Source: the human T2T-CHM13v2.0 reference genome, Homo sapiens. From it: 64,000 nucleotides of DNA. A program made the position numbers and the translations under genes. The stretch spans positions 6,432,001 through 6,496,000 of the forward strand of contig CP086569.2 of assembly GCA_009914755.4 (NCBI GenBank), read 5' to 3'. Below, piece after piece: positions 2,990 to 58,720 of this stretch. The stretch's first letter is position 1, and the number at the start of each line of letters is the position of its first letter. Below the pieces are notes generated by a model. The model saw only the letters and a program-made list of their open reading frames with translations. It was not told the origin of the DNA and searched no databases.

Positions 2990-3620
2990 AAGAAAGAATA
3001 GCTCCACTCCTGCTGGTCTCTCTCCTAGTGGAAGGCGAAGGAGAGGGAAAAACAGCAGCATAGGTGGCTGGCAGAGACAAAAGAAAGATCAGCAGAAAAG
3101 AAAAAGAAAAACAAAACAAAACAAAAACTAGGAGAGGAAGTCAGAGGAACAAAAAGCAACAACAGCAAGCACAGAGCCAAACAACAGCCAGGCAGACAAT
3201 CCAAGGGTCTGTGTAAAAAAGAGGGTGAGGACCAGCACTGGGAGGAGAGCAGAGGAGGTGAAGGCATAATTCTTGCAATTTGCGGCAGGCATCTGCCAAG
3301 CCTCTGGGTCGGTGACTGCCTGGGGCCCAGACAGCAGCCATGCATATCCCACCCACCCAGCCAGAGAAACTAAGTGTAAAAACAAACGAAGAAAAGTAAA
3401 AAGGGAAATAGGGGGGAAAAAACCCAACAACAACAGGAGAAACAGACGGCCCTGCTCACAGCAGGAGCGGGAGAACTCTGGAAAGGAAAGGGAAACAGGA
3501 TGATAGAGAGAAAGATAGGAAGATAGAGTGCAAATGAGAGAGAGAGAAATAGAGGGAAAGAGTAAGAGAAAAACTGGAAGAGACATAAATCAAAGGAAGA
3601 CACAGAGGGTGAAACAAGAA
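2990..3620. repeat. GA-rich purine / polypyrimidine low-complexity tract (~600 bp)
   Basis: The plus strand is almost all A/G (gaaggcgaaggagagggaaaaacagcag...agagagagaaatagagggaaagag). Minus-strand ORFs here (3025-3603) are compositional artefacts. Confidence 0.85.
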
Positions 3621-6600
3621 AAAAGTGTAAAAGGAAGGCAGAAAGTTAAAACATCTTAACGATTGTCTGTAAAAGTCATAAGAAAAACTATAAAAGGGAA
3701 TTTATGCAAAAAATGTATAATTTAAAAGTAATTAGTCCTCCTGAATGTAAAAGTGTTTTAAAAAAACAGTTTATGTACAAGGTATGTAAGAAAAATATAA
3801 TGTACTTTTAATAACAGGATTGTAAGGAGGCATAAGAATATGGATTTTTACCTACATTAAAGGCTAAACATTTTTTTTGTTTGTTTTAAAGGTTTAAGCA
3901 AGTTTTAAAATGTTAATTGTAAAGAAAATTCTGTGTGTAAACATCCTGGCTAAAGTTAAAGGGGTATCATCCAGTTTATCTGTGAACTGCACATTAAAAT
4001 AAAAGCTCAATAAATTTTTCTTAAAGCACTAACCTGCTCTTTAACAAACATTGTAAGAAGTTAAAAAGAGTCTATAAAATTCTTACCTTATAGTCAGACA
4101 TTAAAATTGAATAAACAATGCCTATAAAATTTTATTAAAATTAAGTTTAACATTAATAGCACATTAATATAAAGGTAAAATTTAACTTATCTGGTATAAA
4201 GTCATACAAAAACATTGTCAAATATAAAATGGTGTTTAGTTTTCTTAGGCCTAAAGGTGGCCAGGTAAGTCACAAGGTCCCTCATCCCCAAGGCTATAGC
4301 ACGTAGGGGTGGTAAAGGCCACAGGAAAGCCAAACATTAAGAAGGGGCAGGGTCGCAGTGTCCCCTGGGTGGTGCTAAGTAGGAATAGCGCAACGGGCAT
4401 CACCATGATGCCTCAAGCCCCAGGATATGCATCAGAAATTATATATTAATTTATCTTCCACTTTCCCTTCCCTCAGAACTAAAAGTTCAGAACAAAAAGT
4501 GGCACAGGTACCACCCCTAGAATTTCCAGTACACCAGCACCAGCCTAAAAACCATGTTCTCATCAAAAGATAGAAAGAAAAAAAATGCAAGCTATCCTGG
4601 GAAGAACCCTATTTTATGCTGTTAACCACTAAGACTGCCATCCTCACAGATGAGTAAAAAATGGACCCACCATACAAAAGTCAAAAAAAACTTGCCTCAC
4701 AAAATCATGGGTTACTGTACTAAAATCAAGCCCTACTAAGTTAAAGTTAAAAAAAAAGTTTAATTTTCTTGTATCTTCTATATTGCTTCCTTTCCTTTCA
4801 TTATTGTCTTACAAGCTCCTTGGTTATTAATGTAACTAAGTCTGACTCACCTCAGATCATTGCCTTTAATCTTTGCTCTGTCATACCTTGTGGAAATGTA
4901 AAAGATCAACAACAGCTAGGCTTTTCACACAAATACTTATGTTCCAGCCCTCTAATTGACACAGTTACCCCAAGCACTTGTTGTAATGACCTGCAGCCAA
5001 GATGCTGATTTCCTGCTCCTACAGCCTGGCAACCTTGTAGTGAATGGGACCACATCCCATAAACTACCGAGAAGCAAAGTTAGACTTCCATGAAAAAGGT
5101 TTGTGCAGATCTAAAACCCCTCATCTATTTCACTAAAAGGACTACCCCTTCTAACTGTCGACCTTATCAATGTAACCCTGTCCTTCTCTCTATCACCACC
5201 TCCACCTTAACTAACTCTAGACCTCCCCTTAGTCAATTCTGTTGTATGGGAATTAACATAAATGGAAAAGACCCCCTAGATATTTTTTAAATACCCATTT
5301 TTCTCCCATCTTCCCCTTCTTCAGTAGCCTCAGTTCTAAGTTCCACACCGGTTACTCCTACATCTAATAAAACTAGGATGTTTATTGTAAAAATAAAAAA
5401 TCAAGACAGACCTTAACCATCAAGACAAAATATCAGGATGCAAATGCCTGGCTGAAATGGATTAAATATTCCATTCTCACTTTAAATAAAAGCAATTATT
5501 GTGCTTGTATACACGGTAGGCCAGAGGCCCAGATTGTCCCCTTTCCACTCAGATGGTCTTCTCATCAACCAAATATGGACTGTACGGTGGCTCTTTTTCA
5601 AAATCCCACTGCTTGAAATAATCCGTCATACTGAGCTCTCTCTGCTGTTTCCTGAAATTCAACACCCTATGGGTCAGTCCCTGAGGGCAATCCAGCTTCC
5701 ACCTCTAAATGCCAATTTTGCTTTGTGCCTCACATGGGAGGAGGAAAATTTGGTATTCCTTGAAAGCATAAAAGAATACAAGAAGCACAAGCCCTTCCAA
5801 GAGCTTGCCCATCAGTCCATGCTTAGCCATCCCCAAGCAAATGTATAGTGGTACTGTAAAGGACCTTTACTAAACACTCTGACAAATAATTGAAGCAGTA
5901 CCTATGCTCTAAACGAATTGGCTATCCCCTTCACCCTGGCATTTCATCAGTCTAAAAAGGTAAAAACAAAACACCGCAGGCCAAAACAACTCTGAAGTCT
6001 TTTAATCCTCAGATTTATATAAATGTTATTAAGGTCCTATAAGAAGTGCCAAATAAGTTTAAAACACAAAATCAAATAGCTGTGAAATTTGAATCCATGT
6101 TGTTCTGGCAGGTAACTATAAATTAAAAAAAATTAACTTCAATTCTCACCTTGTTCACTCTTATTATTGGTGTACTTAGTCTTATAAATTGTTATATTAT
6201 TCCCTGACTTCAAAGTTTTATACAAAAACTTGTCTCTGCCACGCTTACAGAGTTAACTCCTAACTCTTCTCCACAGTATTAAAAAAAATTACTTCTCTTA
6301 AAAGAACAAAGAAAACAATTGTCAAAACATATTAAACAAGTTTAAAGGGAAATCATAAAATAATAAGAGGGGGAATATTGTAAAAAGTAAAGTAGAGTTT
6401 CCTCTTCAAAGACTTTCCTCCCCATCTAATTAGGAATAAATAGTAACTTCTCTTAGAAGCAAAATCTATTCAAAGACCTGTGCTCCTAAATATTTTCTCT
6501 GGCATGCTTATACTGGTCCAAGCAAGCATTAAGTCGTAGCCTGTTCCTCTTCCTTATTTAAATGCATTTTACCTTTCTCAGCATTCCACAAGTTACTTTC

Positions 6601-21019: not shown

Positions 21020-22120
21020 TTATTATTTTTAATTTATAATGGACAAATAACAATTGTACATATTTATAGGATACAAAGAGATATTTCAATGAATATATAC
21101 GTAGTACAATAATGAAATTGATGAAATAATTAGCATATTCATTAACCATTTGTTATTAACTTTAGTCATTTATCATTTCCTTGTGTTGACATTCTAACAT
21201 TACTCTGCCACGATCATGAAATATACAATACACTGCTTGTTGCTATAGTCACCCTACTGGGTAGATAGCACCAAATCTGATTTTTCATGTCTAATGCTAA
21301 CTTTGTACCTACTGACCAATCCGGTCTTTCTCAGTCCTCTACCTTGCTCATTCTCTGGTAACAACTATTCTACCCTGCTTCTGTATAAAATTCACTTAGG
21401 TTCTGCATATGAGTGACAACATGTGTTGTTTAATTTTCTGTGTGTGGCTTACTTCACTTATCATAATGTCTTCCAGCTTTTTCCATGTTTCAGCAAATGA
21501 AAGGATTTAATACTGTTTTATGGCTTAATAGTGTTTCATTGAATGTATATGCCATATTTTCTTTATCCATTAATCACTAGGCAATTAGGTTGATTCCCTA
21601 TCTTGGCTTTTGTGAATATTGCTGCAGTAAACATAGGTGTGCAGACGTGTTTCTGATATACTTCGTTTTTTTTTTACAGCTACATATACAGCAATTACTT
21701 TGCTGAGTCAGATGGTTATTGTAGTTTTAATTTTTAAAGTAAACTCCATACTATTTTTCATAGTGTTTATATTACTTTCCTTCACATCAACAGTGTGTTA
21801 GAATTGTCTTTTCTCTGTATTCTCATCTCATTAGTTATGTTTTGTCTTTTTAATAATATTAATTCTTATGAATATTATGTTATTCTTATTAATATTAGTT
21901 ATTAATCCTGATTAACATTAATTATTAATTTTATATTATTAATTCTTACTGGAGTAAGATGGTATCTCACTGTGGTTTTGACTTGCATTTTTCTGATTAT
22001 TAGTGATGTTAAGCATTTTTCATATATTTATTGGTCATACCTAAAAATCTATTAGGTATTTTTCCCATTTTTTAATTACATAATTTTTTCCTATTGCATG
22101 TATATTTTAATATTTATCAT
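21020..22120 (-). mobile_element. Old L1 (L1M-type) 3' region: 3'UTR plus antisense ORF2 C-terminus
   Basis: It matches the recalled L1M 3'-end consensus in antisense orientation: ...gctatagtcaccctactgg...ctggtaacaactattctaccctgcttctgt...ttttatggcttaatagtgtttcattgaatgtatatgccatattttctttatccattaatc ... ttactggagtaagatggtatctcactgtggttttgacttgcatttt. An AT-rich insertion is present. Confidence 0.55.
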
Positions 22121-22479: not shown

Positions 22480-22720
22480 TTCTTTTTTATTTTTATTTAT
22501 TCATTTTTTGGTCCCTATTCTGTAGCTTCTGTTATTTTTATTAAAAAAATTGAGCTTTTGAAGATGGGTGCATGATGGTTATTTTGCTTAATTTTCTCTG
22601 TATTCTCATCAGTATTAGTTACTTTTTGCTTTTTTTATAGTATTAATCCTTACTGGAGTAAGATGGTATCTCACTGTGGTTTTGCCTTGCATTTTGCTTA
22701 ATGTTTGAGTGTATTCAGTT
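22480..22720 (-). mobile_element. Second L1M ORF2-antisense fragment; its 22590-22700 part duplicates 21800-21990
   Basis: tttctctgtattctcatcagtattagttac...aatccttactggagtaagatggtatctcactgtggttttgccttgcatttt is a near copy of 21810-21990. Confidence 0.4.
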
Positions 22721-23330
22721 GTTTCTGTTTTTTTTTTTTGTTGTTGATTTAATCCTGTAAGTGAGCACCTAGCACTTTATAAACATTAGTCTAAATACCA
22801 TACAAGGTAAGACCTGCCGTATAAATGAAGTGAAGCTCAGACTCATAGGCAAAATGAGAGAAATATACAAATAACCATGTCTATTGTAGTGCTTTGTGAT
22901 GTCTCAGCTGTGGACAAATTGTCTAGTCTGAGTGATTATTAAAATGCAGATTATTGGGCCCCACCCTAGAACTACTGAAACGGAATCTATTTTTATGGGG
23001 CACAGAAATCTGTATTTATAAATGACCACTCAAGATTATAAAAAGGCAATGATGAATTATTAGATTTACTGAATATTGGTAAGAAGAGTGGGTACCACTT
23101 ACTGAGGACTCCGTGTATGCAGAATTGAACAAGTTGCTCTGCATATATTACCCATATAGTGCTATCCAAAACCCCAAATATGTAAAAAGTGTGAATTAGG
23201 TGGTATTTCATGACAGGCTTCCCTGCAGGAGGTCAGCCAGTGTTCGTGCTATGCCTTCTCTCATACTATAATATACAGCACTGGGGTTTGCCACCAAATT
23301 GCCTTCTTGGGTTCTCCCCAATGGCAAAAC

Positions 23331-24180
23331 AATATATTAATAATTATTAATAATATTAATATATTATGCATTGCAATATATTGATTAATTAATATATAAT
23401 ATATTATTAATATAATATTACATTAATATAATCATATTAATTGTATATTAATTATTTTAAAATATATTATTAATGTATTATATCAATTACATTATGAATC
23501 ATATATTAATTATATACTTACAATTATATATTTATATATAATTATATAAATAATTATATGTATTATTTATATTAGCAATAACATATTAACATATTATAAT
23601 TAATACATAATAATATAAGCTAAATATATAATATATGCTTAATAGATTATAATATATTAATAACATATAATGATTACTATATCACAATATAGTAATACTA
23701 ATATTAATATACTGTTAGTTATAATATATTAATAATTATATAATGTATGATATGTTAATTAGTATGTATCATGATATATTAATAAATATATAATTATTAA
23801 TAAATAATGTAAAATATATTAATAAATAATGTATCATCCTATATTAATAATTAATATATCATATTATATAGTTACTGCAGTATAATAATATTTAATATAG
23901 TGTGATATATTAATGATTAATATAGTGATATATTAATGATTAATATAGTATGATATATACTGTATTATATATCATACTCCCAAAAATGTTTGTCAATCTA
24001 TGCTCTAAAAAAAGTCTGTTAATAAACATTTAAATTAAATTAATATAGTATATTATACTATGTTATATATCATACTATATTAAGCATTAATATATCATAC
24101 TATATTATCATACTATATATCATACTATATTATATAATATACTATGTTAATTATTAATATATCATGATATATTAATACAT
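23331..24180. repeat. Long AT-rich low-complexity / degenerate (ATATTAAT)n-like tract (~850 bp)
   Basis: Almost no G or C. It is built from atattaat, tatataat and catactatat variants, with many short palindromes. Confidence 0.9.
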
Positions 24181-24574
24181 TTCTAGAAGAAGCTTGATGT
24201 CCTCACATCCTTTTTGAAGCCTCCATGGTCTCTAAAGTCCTCTTCCACTATATTCAAATAAGTTATTTTGTCTTTTTTATACTACTTAACAGTGTTGATC
24301 TCTTGCGAGAAGAAGCCTTTATCTGGAGCCAGCTCCATAATTTATTCTGTGTTGGATATTATGTTTCTTGAGTTGGAAGGTGAATATATTTAAAAATATA
24401 AAATAAATTATAGAAAAATATGATTTTTATTTAATTCATACACTTAGAGGTTCTATTTGCCAGAATACAAACTTTCTTTAATTTTTGGCAAATTAGCATT
24501 CCTATGAGATTACTTTGACCATATATAATTGTGATAAAAATAGCAAATTATAAAAAAAAACACAATGTCCAGAT

Positions 24575-25135
24575 AAGATGGCTCTTGCCTGTAACCTGGC
24601 ATTTTGGGAGGCTGAAGCAGGAGAATCACTTGAGGCCAGGAGTTCAAGAGCAGTGTGGGCAACATAGTGAGACCTCATTTCTATAAAAACTTTAAAAAAT
24701 TAGCTGGGCATGGTTTGTGTGCCTAGAGCCAGGTTCTCATAAGACTGCAGCGGAAAGATTGCTTGAGCCCAAGTGTTTGAGACTGACCTAGGCAACATAG
24801 TGAGACATTTTCTGTACAGAAAATAATTAGCTAGGCATGGAGATGTGTGTTCTTAACCCCAGCTAATCTAAAGGCTGAGGCAAGAGAAGCTCGTGAGGCC
24901 AGGAGTTTGAGACAAGCATGGCAACTGAGGAAGACCCTATTTCTACAAAAAACAGAAAATTACATGGGTGTGGTGGCATATGGCTGTTGTCCCACTTACT
25001 TGTGAGGCTGAGGCAAGAGTTTGTTTGAGTCTAGGACACTGATTCTGCCAGTGAGCCATGACTGTATCACAGCATTCCACCCTGTGTGACAAGAGCAAGA
25101 CCCAGTCTCTAAGAAAATAATAAAATAAAAATAAC
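24575..25135 (+). mobile_element. Tandem cluster of ~4 Alu monomer-like units (FLAM/FRAM-like) ending in an A-rich tail
   Basis: Repeated units of the form ggctcttgcctgtaacctggcattttgggaggctgaagcaggagaatcacttgaggccaggagttcaagag..., ttagctgggcatgg..., gcttgagcccaagtgtttgagactgacctaggcaacatagtgagac, and ...ccagtgagccatgactgtatcacagcattccaccctgtgtgacaagagcaagacccagtctc aaaataaaaataa. Confidence 0.7.
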
Positions 25136-25162
25136 AGGAATATGTCAGCAAAATGGCAGACT

Positions 25163-25325
25163 CGGTAGTTCCAAGCATTTGTATCTACACAAAAAGAAGT
25201 AGTAGTCTAAATCAACTTTGTAAGAGTTCTGGAAAACAGTCAAAGGTTTGTAGTAACCAAGGAAATGTACAGTCAAGGAAAGATGGCTGGGCATGGTGGC
25301 TTATTACCTTTATTCTTGTGATTCG
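25163..25325 (+). repeat. Left arm of a high-identity inverted repeat (partner at 26444-26606)
   Basis: The reverse complement of 26444-26606 aligns to this segment with 4 mismatches over ~163 bp (cggtagttccaagcatttgtatctacacaaaaagaagtag...ggctgggcatggtggcttattacctttattcttgtgattc). Confidence 0.85.
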
Positions 25326-25639
25326 GTTTCTCAAAAAATTGGCAAATCATTAACAGACACAATTTTTTTAGAGCATAGATTGGCAAACATTTTTGGTAGA
25401 GGGCCAGAAAGTAAGTATTTTAGGTTTTGCAGAATATACTCTGTTTCCAGTATTCAGCTCTGCAGAAAAGCAGCTATAGACAACAGGTGAACAAATAGAT
25501 GTGGCTGTGTCCCTTTAATAGTTTACTTATAGAACTAGTCCACCGATAAGACACGGTCTCTGGGCCACAGTTGGCCAATCCCTGGCCTAAAACAGTAGTT
25601 TCTGAAGACTTTATAGTTTTACTACTCTTGGCAATTTTG

Positions 25640-25795
25640 TTTTTCTTTTTCTTTTTCCCTTTTTAATTTTTTTATAGAGATAGTGCCTCACTGTGTTGCC
25701 CAGGCTGATCTTGAGCTTCTGTGCTGAAGCAATCCTCTTGCCTTGGCCACCCAAATTGTTGCGATTACAGACATGGGCTACCATATGTAGCCTGA
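25640..25795 (-). mobile_element. Alu fragment (partial, antisense) inside the inverted-repeat spacer
   Basis: agagatagtgcctcactgtgttgcccaggctgatcttgagcttctgtgctgaagcaatcctcttgccttggccacccaaattgttgcgattacagacatgggctaccat. Confidence 0.5.
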
Positions 25796-26443
25796 ACAGT
25801 TTCTTGTTCTTCTAAAACTATATCAGGAAATGGACCTGAATTAAAATAAATTTTATTTGAGATTTTGGAGAATTTTAAAATGCCCTTTGATAATTTATGA
25901 AGCCTTGAATTAGCCATAAAATCACAGTTGGTAATTGCTACTTGAAGCAGGATTGTGAATATTTTTAAATGCTACTTTTAATCTTATTAAATGAAACATT
26001 ATTAAATGGAAAGGCATTGGACTTTTGCATTTACTTAAGGCTTAAGATGAAATATCAGTGGAATGCAGAAGACATAAAAATATCAAAAGAAAGAAAAAGG
26101 GGAAAATATTAAAAAAAAAACAGAAATAATTAGCTACTATTTTGGAATTTTAGCAAATATTGCATAGTATAGTTAATAATGACAGTCCATGTTTTAGATT
26201 TTCCACAACAGCCTATGTGCACATACATATTTTTACCACTTGTATTCTTTGGTTTAAAGTATATGGTCAAACTCTTTATCACATAGAGAAGAATCTATAA
26301 CAAAAAAAGATTTTTTTCCCTAATGATTTTGTAGTGAGTATAAGAAAGAGACATGGGACCCACTGAATTTCTTTAATAATTTATTGCTTTTTATAATAAG
26401 ATTAGGAATAGAATTTAGATATTCTTAAACCAGTTTAAACTGA

Positions 26444-26606
26444 ATCACAAGAATAAAGGTAATAAGCCACCATGCCCAGCCATCTTTCCTTGACTGTACA
26501 TTTCCTTGGTTACTACAAACCTTTGACTGTTTTTCAGAACTCTTACAAAGTTGATTTAGACTGCTACTTCTTTTTGTGTAGATACAAATGCTTGGAGCTA
26601 CTGAAT
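26444..26606 (-). repeat. Right arm of the inverted repeat (partner at 25163-25325)
   Basis: gaatcacaagaataaaggtaataagccaccatgcccagccatctttccttgactgtacatttcc...tgtgtagatacaaatgcttggagctactg is the reverse complement of the left arm. Confidence 0.85.
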
Positions 26607-26741
26607 AGTTCTTTAATTACTTAGGTAGAATGTCCTAAAAATAGCAAGTAGGTTGCAGGCAAGTTATGCAGTTGTTATCCTTGTTTATGAGGCTGGCACT
26701 GGGCTGGCTGCTTCCCAGATATCATCTCATGGATGGAAGTA

Positions 26742-27042
<301 letters not shown>

Positions 27043-27227
27043 CCCCACATGAAAGTATTGTTGCATCCATGTTTGATGGGGAAACAGTTGTTAGTTTACT
27101 AAGGTCATGTAGCCAGGAGAGGCAGGTATGGGTTTAAATATTTCTGACTTCAAAACCATGTAAAATGTGTCAAAATATATATCAATAAATATATCAGATA
27201 TTCAAATATATTTTTTCAAGTGTTTCT

Positions 27228-51453: not shown

Positions 51454-51621
51454 AGACCACTAGTTTCTTTTAAAAGAGAAAAGGTGATAATATTTGGGTC
51501 TTTATAATTGTTTTTCTGTATTAAAGCAAAAATGTAGTATAAATGTATAGTACTGCATGACTAGAAAACTAGAAAAAGTAATTGAGAAACACTATATTTT
51601 ATTTTCTCCAGTCACTTGTTA

Positions 51622-51942
51622 CTCTTTCTTCCCCTCCCTCTTCTTTCTTTTTCTTTCTTTCTTTCTTCTCTTTCTTTCTTTCTTTTCTTTCTTTCTCTTT
51701 CTTTCTTTCTCTTTCTTTCTTTCTTTCTTCCTTCCTTCCTTCTTTTTTCTTTCCTTCCTTCCTTCCTTTTTTCTTTCTTTCTTTCTTTTCTTTTCTTTTC
51801 TTTCTTCTCTCCTCCCTCCCTCCCTGCCTCCCTCCTTCTCTCCCTCCTTCCCTCCCTCCCTTCCTCCCATCCTCCCTTCCCTTTTCTCACTTCCCTCCTT
51901 CCTTCCTTTCTTCCTGCCTCCCTCCCTGCCTCCCTTCTTTCA
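51622..51942. repeat. Compound polypyrimidine microsatellite, (TTTC)n/(TTCC)n/(TCCC)n, ~320 bp
   Basis: The plus strand is almost only C/T: tctttctttctttctt...ccttccttccttcc...ctccctccctccctgcctccc. The overlapping ORFs at 51557-52010 are artefacts of this tract. Confidence 0.9.
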
Positions 51943-52883
51943 TAACTTTTTTGTAGCCAGCCAGATGGTAAGCGTTTCCAGCTTTTGAGGCTATCCAGAT
52001 TTTGTCTCAACTACTCACCTCTGATGTTATAAGAAAGAAGCCATAGATAACATGCAAATGAATGGACTGGGCTGTGTTAAATTAATACTTCATTTACAGA
52101 AGCAGCCAGTGGACCACATTTGGCCCATGGGCTATAGATTTCCAACTCGTACTCTAAGAGAAAAATTGTTTTGCTTACTTACCTTTCCACACCCCACATG
52201 GAAGTGTAGTGCTTCAGGCAAATGCTTTTTTAAAAATTTATGCCTAAACTGCGCATGGGGTTGCTTGCCTGTAATCCTAGGTACTTGAGAGTCTGACATG
52301 GGAGGATTACTTGCATCCTACAACTTTGCATCCAGCCTTGAGAAACCCTTATCTCTTAAAAAATGTGCCTGAAAGTCCAATCTCTCACACTGCCTTTTGT
52401 GTAAAATATCCCTTTTGCTACCATATTGGTTCTATTAGAGAGAAAGGTAGGGGTTACACACTTTTGCAACTCATTAAGGAGGGTAGAAGCAGATATTGAT
52501 AATAGTTTCCTTAGTTTAAAAACTGTTAGAACATATTAAAAACCATCAGCTGCTAAGATTTCCTTACTCCCTGGCTGAGTTAGAATTTCTTTTGAATATC
52601 AGAAGCCTAATGGGCTCTCCCTGCATAAGCTGGCAATACAAACTGAGGTAGACACTGTGGGAATGGAGTCCACTGGCTGCCAGCTGGCCTCCCCATCCCC
52701 ATGGGGTCTCCACAGTCACCTGGCACCAAGAAGAACATGCTCTCTTCTTTATTTTCCATTGAGGTATTTTGTGGTGCCTTGTTTAAACTGATTTTAACAT
52801 CCTCTTTAAGTTTTAATCAGATACTTTGAAGAAAAATATAGAAAAACAAAAACAGAAATCTATGTGTTTGTTACTCAGATTTA

Positions 52884-57129: not shown

Positions 57130-58720
<1,591 letters not shown>

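What the first reader, a model, noticed from the sequence alone, without database searches (positions are those of the whole stretch)
25163..26606. High-identity 163-bp inverted repeat pair flanking a 1.1-kb spacer
Arms 25163-25325 (+) and 26444-26606 (-) differ at only 4 positions (~97.5 % identity). Nearby interspersed repeats of primate age diverge far more from their consensus, so this looks like a comparatively recent inverted duplication or palindrome, or arms homogenised by gene conversion. Each arm contains a 17-bp Alu-5'-like motif (ggctgggcatggtggct) but is not itself an Alu. The spacer carries a DNA-transposon-like segment (…gcagaatatactctgtttccagtattcagctctgcagaaaagcagctatagacaacaggtgaacaaatagatgtggctgtgtccc…) and an Alu fragment. 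The left arm immediately follows an Alu-monomer array. The arms could be long terminal inverted repeats of an uncharacterised DNA element, or a fold-back rearrangement; both are structurally interesting and potentially unstable.
Basis: seen in the sequence. Interest (0 to 1): 0.55.

Follow-up and report, generated by a model that had tools for sequence, protein, structure and literature searches.

The report
Young 168-bp local inverted duplication
A 168-base stretch of ordinary primate non-coding DNA was copied backwards about 1.1 kb away some 10-30 million years ago; it is a real but ordinary small rearrangement scar, not a mobile element.

Summary
The inverted repeat is real. The arms are 25162-25329 (+) and 26437-26604 (-): 168 nt, ungapped, 163/168 identical (97.0%), with a 1107-nt spacer. 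All five differences are transitions and two are CpG decays. Homology stops abruptly at all four ends. It is the most similar repeat pair in the 64-kb window; Alu and L1 pairs are 70-85% identical.

It is not a transposon. There is no target-site duplication, no third copy in the window and no Pfam domain in any frame. The spacer is made of much older repeats. The arms are not Alu or L1, apart from a shared 17-nt Alu-head stub.

A second inverted pair of the same apparent age lies nearby. A (25349-25401) matches A' (24023-23977, inside an AT-rich satellite) at 47/49 aligned bases. Its template starts only 19 bp from the left arm.

Best reading: local inverted templated copies made by replication or repair template switching. 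The main rival is a micro-inversion with a staggered break. No outgroup sequence could be obtained, so the exact mechanism stays inferred. Small inverted repeats of this size are common in human DNA. With a 1.1-kb spacer, strong instability is not expected. Interest is low.

The parts
25162..25329 (+). Left arm (B) of the inverted repeat, 168 nt. It keeps two CpGs (25163, 25324) that are CpA in the partner.
26437..26604 (-). Right arm (B'), the reverse complement of B, 163/168 identical.
25330..26436 (.). 1107-nt spacer: 19-nt linker, old MITE-like DNA transposon, antisense Alu left monomer, then AT-rich sequence with no other match in the window. No Pfam domain in any frame.
25285..25301 (+). 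17-nt Alu 5'-head stub inside the left arm. Its mirror copy is at 26465-26481 (-). The stub predates the duplication.
25349..25401 (+). Segment A, template of a second short inverted copy. It begins 19 bp after the left arm and runs on without a break into the rest of the MITE-like element.
23977..24023 (-). Segment A', an inverted copy of A (33/34 in the core; 47/49 aligned bases plus one 4-nt indel). It forms an island inside the AT-rich satellite.
25355..25603 (.). Old MITE-like DNA transposon (limits approximate). It is a nested passenger of the spacer, not the source of the arms.
   Evidence: sequence. The end symmetry is not above shuffles. Identification rests on my recollection of the consensus.
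25660..25790 (-). Antisense Alu left monomer in the spacer, about 75% identical to other Alus in the window.
23331..24174 (.). AT-rich, partly palindromic satellite that hosts A'. It is a candidate trigger of fork stalling or breakage (inferred).

Best explanation
The two arms are a template and its copy, made by one local duplication event in a primate ancestor. A 168-nt stretch of non-coding DNA, already carrying a 17-nt Alu-head stub, was re-synthesised in reverse orientation about 1.1 kb away. The inferred mechanism is a transient template switch during replication or break repair (FoSTeS/MMBIR-type, or repair synthesis on the wrong strand). The same process, possibly the same event, placed a 49-nt inverted copy (A') of the sequence 19 bp beyond the left arm into the AT-rich satellite 1.3 kb upstream. 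The repeat is a neutral scar. It does not move, encodes nothing, and has decayed by five transitions since it formed.

Shown: the structure, the identities, the sharp limits, the lack of transposon features, and the second pair with an adjoining template. Inferred: the template-switch mechanism, which arm is the copy, the role of the satellite, and the age of roughly 9-30 Myr.
For: The arms are 163/168 identical, ungapped, with abrupt ends. The 100-bp flanks score no better than shuffles, and no direct flanking repeat exceeds 5 nt. The pair is the identity outlier of the window, and no third copy exists. The spacer repeats are far older, with the Alu monomer about 75% identical to other Alus, so the arms formed around pre-existing sequence.

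The second inverted pair A/A' has the same identity level, 33/34 in the core and 47/49 aligned with one indel. A is continuous with the rest of its MITE, whereas A' is a 47-nt island inside a satellite. For that pair the direction template to inverted insertion is therefore clear. The two templates lie 19 bp apart. Undoing either pair as an inversion would leave the other pair as a dispersed direct repeat that needs a separate origin, so inversions explain the two pairs less economically than a shared copying process (my own block-order reasoning).

Inverted templated insertions close to their template are a documented germline and somatic mutation class (PMC8421209; PMC7954356, abstract listed). 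Divergence is 3.0% overall and 1.85% outside CpG.
Against: No outgroup or second haplotype could be obtained, so the pre-event state is unknown. Junction microhomology cannot be scored without it, and none is evident. Documented MMBIR-type templated insertions are mostly tens of bases long and lie within about 100 bp of the template. Here the copies are 49 and 168 nt long and lie 1.1-1.3 kb away. A one-sided staggered-break inversion would give the same B...B' picture. The satellite's hairpin potential is only modest (z = -2.2).
Confidence: 0.5

Rival explanations
1. Micro-inversion with a staggered break. The roughly 1.3-kb segment was inverted after two breaks, one of them staggered by 168 nt. 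Fill-in of the overhangs left the staggered stretch duplicated in inverted orientation at both ends of the inverted segment.
For: The architecture (arm, segment, inverted arm, sharp ends, no target-site duplication) is what the model predicts. In Drosophila, 17 of 29 fixed inversions carry such inverted duplications of 46 bp to 1.9 kb, median 321 bp, often at one breakpoint only (PMC1885836).
Against: It does not explain A', an isolated 47-nt inverted island whose template adjoins the left arm. By my own block-order reasoning, two overlapping inversions would be needed, and undoing either leaves the other pair as a dispersed direct repeat. No old repeat is visibly split across the predicted new junctions, but no repeat library was available, so this test is weak.
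Confidence: 0.25
2. An older inverted duplication whose arms have been kept similar by intrachromosomal gene conversion, as in sex-chromosome palindromes.
For: Arm-to-arm conversion is well documented for large palindromes (abstracts listed). The longest identical run (92 nt, positions 72-163) lies in the interior, with three of the five differences near the arm ends.
Against: The arms are only 168 nt, near or below the homology length usually thought necessary for efficient conversion in mammals (my own knowledge). The documented cases have kilobase-scale arms at over 99% identity. No decayed homology lies outside the arms. The 49-nt A/A' pair, too short to be maintained by conversion, has the same identity, so about 3% looks like a true age. 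The clustering of differences is not significant (my rough estimate, P about 0.1).
Confidence: 0.08
3. Two independent insertions or fragments of one interspersed repeat family that happen to lie in opposite orientation.
For: I could not run RepeatMasker or Dfam, so family membership of the arm sequence is not formally excluded.
Against: Both copies share exactly the same two end points and are 97% identical, which would need a very young family. The arms match none of the Alu or L1 sequence in the window, which includes near full-length L1. They contain a truncated 17-nt Alu head at the same position, the mark of a copied locus and not of a repeat consensus. No individual target-site duplications exist.
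Confidence: 0.05
4. Terminal inverted repeats of an uncharacterised 1.44-kb DNA transposon.
For: The unit has the inverted-termini architecture, and the spacer contains a DNA-transposon-like segment.
Against: There is no target-site duplication, no other copy in 64 kb and no transposase or other Pfam domain in six frames. The transposon-like segment is a separate old MITE with its own ends. The interior also contains an old Alu monomer that is much more diverged than the arms. From my own knowledge, DNA transposons have been inactive in anthropoid primates for about 37 Myr or more, so 97% identical ends would not be expected.
Confidence: 0.03

Closest known systems
Long inverted repeats / inverted duplicates of mammalian genomes (IRF and Lirex catalogues)
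   Same: Two reverse-complementary copies over 30 nt and over 85% identical within 2 kb. A demonstration 200-kb stretch of human chromosome 4 already contains a comparable case: 122-nt arms, 4.7% mismatch, 811-nt spacer (PMC5414712). IRF finds 4.3 million inverted duplicates in the human genome (PMC5398296).
   Different: This one is at the long, high-identity end of that distribution. It comes with a second, same-age inverted copy drawn from an adjoining template.
MMBIR/FoSTeS templated insertions (MMB-TI) and short-range template switches
   Same: An insertion that is the reverse complement of nearby sequence. For A' it sits inside a repetitive, hairpin-prone tract.
   Different: Described events are mostly 10 nt to read length and lie within about 100 bp of the template, flanked by microhomology. 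Here the copies are 49 and 168 nt long and 1.1-1.3 kb away, and microhomology could not be assessed.
Inversion-associated inverted duplications (staggered-break model, Ranz et al. 2007)
   Same: Inverted duplicates of formerly unique sequence bound a segment, and the size lies within the reported range.
   Different: Whether the spacer is inverted relative to the ancestor is unknown. The scale here is about 1 kb, not a chromosomal inversion. The second pair does not fit a single inversion.
Sex-chromosome palindromes maintained by gene conversion
   Same: Inverted arms with high identity around a unique spacer.
   Different: Arms there are kilobases to megabases long and over 99% identical, and they carry genes (abstracts). 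Here the arms are 168 nt of non-coding sequence at 97%.

Membership tests
Long inverted repeat (Lirex/IRF operational class) | Two reverse-complement copies of at least 30 nt and at least 85% identity within a 2-kb window | tested here: met
   168 nt, 97.0%, 1107-nt spacer. Criteria as given in PMC5414712.
Recombinogenic / unstable inverted repeat (Lobachev criteria) | Spacer under about 20 bp, or arm-to-spacer ratio above 16 | tested here: not met
   The spacer is 1107 nt and the ratio is 0.15. It passes only Lirex's much looser rule, ratio at least equal to the mismatch rate.
DNA transposon with terminal inverted repeats | Target-site duplication flanking the unit | tested here: not met
   The longest shared direct word in the 20-nt flanks is 3 nt.
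DNA transposon with terminal inverted repeats | Multiple dispersed copies | tested here: inconclusive
   There is no other copy in the 64-kb window. An exact 34-mer gave no hit in metagenome, prokaryote-genome or viral contigs, but these are not primate genomes.
DNA transposon with terminal inverted repeats | Transposase gene or remnant in the interior (autonomous copy) | tested here: not met
   Six-frame Pfam scan of 25100-26700 found 0 families. The longest ORFs are 66 aa or shorter.
Alu element | Similarity to the 7SL-derived monomer over its length | tested here: not met
   Only a 17-nt head is present. The arms have no Rfam SRP hit, whereas neighbouring Alus do. The arms give no blast match to the window's Alus.
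Staggered-break inversion | Inverted duplicates of once-unique sequence at the ends of the segment | tested here: met
Staggered-break inversion | Segment orientation reversed relative to the ancestral state | not testable with these tools
   No primate genomes are available. ORF look-ups and protein search returned nothing.
MMBIR-type templated insertion | Insertion is the reverse complement of a nearby template | tested here: met
   B/B' and A/A'. For A' the copy direction is clear.
MMBIR-type templated insertion | Microhomology at both junctions | tested here: inconclusive
   The junction sequences are listed. ATTAA at one A' junction matches the satellite motif, but the pre-insertion sequence is unknown.
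MMBIR-type templated insertion | Template within about 100 bp (operational definition of MMBSearch) | tested here: not met
   The templates are 1107 and 1325 nt away.
Conversion-maintained palindrome | Arm-to-arm identity higher than orthologue identity across species | not testable with these tools
   No outgroup sequence could be obtained.

The most novel reading that the evidence does not exclude
Both inverted copies (168 nt to the right, 49 nt to the left) were laid down in one multi-step template-switching event. The event would have been seeded by fork stalling or breakage at the AT-rich palindromic satellite and drew twice on one 240-nt stretch (25162-25401) as template. That would make this a fossil germline example of kilobase-range, bidirectional MMBIR-type copying, a range that current detection tools (100-bp search radius) do not cover. 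A weaker variant is that, if the locus is transcribed, the 168-bp near-perfect hairpin acts as a source of double-stranded RNA.
Probability: 0.15. Interest if true: 0.4.

Novelty: new member of a known kind. Interest (0 to 1): 0.2.

Why it matters
It matters little on its own. It is one more small inverted duplication in repeat-rich, gene-poor primate DNA. Its modest value is as a clean, datable example: two same-age inverted copies drawn from adjoining templates next to an AT-rich satellite. With primate assemblies it could show whether kilobase-range template switching or staggered-break micro-inversion creates such repeats. It also marks a site where a 1.1-kb inversion polymorphism by arm-to-arm recombination is conceivable, though not expected to be frequent.

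Tried and rejected
1. Comparative data. Four ORFs spanning the arms and junctions were looked up for exact encoding contigs, all without a record. A homology search with the 66-aa ORF covering the left arm found nothing. An exact 34-mer shared by both arms gave 0 hits in metagenome, prokaryotic-genome and viral contigs. These collections are not primate genomes, so the negatives say nothing about copy number in the host genome.

2. Gene anchor. I looked for a coding exon in the window that could fetch an orthologous locus. Only L1 ORFs and a GOT2-like processed pseudogene were seen.

3. Longer, decayed inverted repeat. The near flanks score like shuffles. The 300-nt outer-flank signal comes only from two unrelated, old, oppositely oriented Alus.

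4. Transposon test. No target-site duplication, no Pfam domain and no extra copy were found.

5. RNA families. Rfam gave only weak Alu/SRP-type and sub-threshold miRNA hits outside the arms.

6. Junction palindrome. CAGTTT|AAACTG is centred on the right arm's inner junction. I considered it a possible snap-back signature but set it aside, because one of its bases is a CpG-decay difference between the arms. It was probably imperfect when the repeat formed, and the remaining 8-nt palindrome is not improbable in AT-rich DNA.

7. Single dupINVdup-type inversion explaining both pairs. The block order does not fit.

8. MITE end symmetry. The alignment was not above shuffles, so the MITE limits are approximate.

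Full report
OBSERVATION

The inverted repeat exists. The repeat finder reports arms 25162-25329 and 26437-26604, 168 nt, 97% complementary, with 1107 nt between them. A blastn of the two regions gives 163/168 identities without gaps, E = 2e-64, and nothing else significant between the 300-nt neighbourhoods.
Its right arm is offset by about 2-3 nt, and the arms are 5 nt longer than stated.
- The five differences (25164/26602, 25169/26597, 25203/26563, 25232/26534, 25325/26441) are all transitions.
- Two differences are CpG in the left arm against CpA in the right arm, so non-CpG divergence is 3/164.
- In an all-against-all comparison of the 64-kb window this pair is the identity outlier. Alu-Alu and L1-L1 pairs lie between 70 and 85%.
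- The 17-mer GGCTGGGCATGGTGGCT is present exactly once in each arm. The only other near-matches in the window are the heads of real Alus.

CONTEXT

The window is AT-rich (37% G+C) primate-type sequence full of L1 and Alu. I saw no convincing coding exon, only a GOT2-like processed pseudogene near 58 kb.
- Left of the repeat lies an Alu-like array (24566-25130), with three left-monomer-like units spaced 133 and 130 nt, then a right monomer and an A-tail.
- Right of it, 132 nt away, lies an antisense Alu (26737-27043).
- The spacer contains a 19-nt linker, then a MITE-like old DNA transposon (about 25355-25603). I identified it from my recollection of the consensus, and its end symmetry is not statistically above shuffles.
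- The spacer also contains an antisense Alu left monomer (25660-25790, about 75% identical to other Alus) and about 650 nt of AT-rich sequence with no other match in the window.
- Because these spacer repeats are much more diverged than the arms, the arms formed around pre-existing sequence.

WHAT IT IS NOT

It is not a transposon.
- The 20-nt flanks of the unit share at most a 3-nt direct word, and those of each single arm at most 5 nt.
- There is no third copy of the arm or unit in 64 kb.
- Six-frame translation of 25100-26700 hits no Pfam family.
- The longest ORFs are 66 aa or shorter.

It is not a pair of Alu or L1 fragments. The arms match none of the window's Alus or its near full-length L1s and get no Rfam SRP hit, whereas the neighbouring Alus do.

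It is not the conserved core of a longer decayed palindrome. The 100-nt flanks on both sides score like shuffled sequence. The only signal in the 300-nt outer flanks comes from the two unrelated old Alus in opposite orientation.

A SECOND, SAME-AGE INVERTED COPY

A second inverted pair lies nearby. Segment A starts 19 nt inside the left arm. Its core 25363-25396 matches 24013-23980 on the opposite strand at 33/34. With one 4-nt indel the match extends to 25349-25401 against 24023-23977, 47 of 49 aligned bases.
- The plus copy (A) continues without interruption into the rest of the MITE-like element.
- The minus copy (A') is a 47-nt island with AT-rich satellite on both sides (satellite 23331-24174).
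- A is therefore the template and A' the displaced inverted copy.
- From my own knowledge of minimal homology requirements, a 49-nt repeat is too short to be kept similar by gene conversion. Its roughly 4% divergence therefore supports reading the arms' 3% as a true age, although the confidence interval on 2/49 is wide.

So one 240-nt stretch (25162-25401) served as template for two inverted copies: 168 nt placed 1.1 kb to the right and 49 nt placed 1.3 kb to the left.

MECHANISM

I tried to derive the block order A' - X - B - linker - A - S - B' from a single inversion with staggered breaks at both ends (dupINVdup). That model predicts P-Q'-M'-P'-Q with the duplicates adjacent at each junction. 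Here 1.1-1.3 kb of old sequence lies between them, so it does not fit. Two successive one-sided inversions would work only if the earlier pair had first arisen as a dispersed direct repeat, which is less economical.

Two inverted templated insertions need only one kind of process. Inverted copying of nearby sequence by template switching is established: MMBIR-type templated insertions (PMC8421209) and short-range template switches in great apes (PMC7954356, abstract listed). I therefore favour template switching during replication or break repair. The hairpin-prone satellite is a plausible trigger, although its predicted hairpin stability is only modestly above shuffles (z = -2.2).

The reservations are real.
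- Known events are shorter and closer to their templates.
- Microhomology cannot be scored without the ancestral sequence.
- For the B/B' pair alone, a one-sided staggered-break micro-inversion (Ranz et al. 2007; duplicates of 46 bp to 1.9 kb) gives exactly the same picture.

AGE

Jukes-Cantor distance is 3.0% overall and 1.85% outside CpG. At 0.5-1.0e-9 substitutions per site per year per lineage, this is roughly 9-30 Myr. That assumes no conversion and neutral rates, and the host species is not known to me.

STABILITY AND FUNCTION

Folded as single-stranded DNA, the 1467-nt region pairs the two arms along their whole length, as it must. With a 1107-nt loop the arm-to-spacer ratio is 0.15. 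The inverted repeats shown to be labile have spacers under 20 bp or ratios above 16 (as quoted in PMC5414712). Human polymorphic inversions driven by inverted repeats that have been validated involve much longer repeats (PMC3961182). I see no evidence of function. A long hairpin RNA would form only if the locus is transcribed, which I cannot test.

HOW ORDINARY IT IS

IRF finds 4.3 million inverted duplicates in the human genome, most of them tiny (PMC5398296). The Lirex demonstration on 200 kb of chromosome 4 already lists a 122-nt pair with 4.7% mismatch and an 811-nt spacer. The present case is a clean, rather long and well-preserved member of that class.

LIMITS

No primate genome, repeat library or variant catalogue was available. 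All routes to related sequence failed. Three things rest on inference: which arm is the copy, whether the spacer is inverted relative to the ancestor, and whether the two copies arose in one event. The decisive comparison is spelled out in the next steps.

Noticed in passing
window 23977-24023 (-) and 25349-25401 (+): A second young inverted pair: 33/34 in the core, 47/49 aligned with one 4-nt indel. Its template starts 19 bp from the left arm, and its copy is an island inside an AT-rich satellite.
   Followed up: yes
window 23331-24174: About 840 nt of AT-rich (around 25% G+C), partly palindromic satellite with periods of roughly 11-25 and 65-74 nt. The part right of A' folds only modestly better than shuffles, z = -2.2.
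   Followed up: partly
window 24566-25130: An Alu-like array with three left-monomer-like units (start spacing 133 and 130 nt) before a right monomer and A-tail. It is either an Alu with extra left monomers or free left monomers next to an old Alu.
   Followed up: no
window 26431-26442: The perfect 12-nt palindrome CAGTTT|AAACTG is centred exactly on the inner boundary of the right arm. One base is a CpG-decay difference between the arms, so the palindrome was probably imperfect when the repeat formed.
   Followed up: partly
window 25049-25127 (+) and 26740-26818 (-): The repeat is bracketed by two old Alus in opposite orientation with their tails pointing inward, about 71% complementary. They are independent insertions, not part of the duplication.
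   Followed up: partly
window about 57900-58700: ORF fragments on the + strand, such as ...[27 protein letters not shown]..., resemble mitochondrial aspartate aminotransferase (GOT2). They are broken by stops and frame changes, so this looks like a processed pseudogene. The identification is from my recollection of the protein.
   Followed up: no
window 21929-22001 and 22633-22705: A direct 73-nt pair, 90% identical (95% over 63 nt), 704 nt apart. The sequence (GATGGTATCTCACTGTGGTTTTG...) looks like the conserved L1 ORF2 3' region, so these are probably two old L1 fragments and not a fresh duplication.
   Followed up: partly
window 22930-23029: A weak Rfam mir-1289-like hit on both strands (32.6 and 28.7 bits against a gathering score of 66). 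It points to a palindromic hairpin-like segment, probably repeat-derived.
   Followed up: no
window about 3030-3700 and 51550-52010: Long purine- or pyrimidine-rich low-complexity tracts that give open reading frames in several frames on both strands, such as KKERKKEGRKE-type translations.
   Followed up: no
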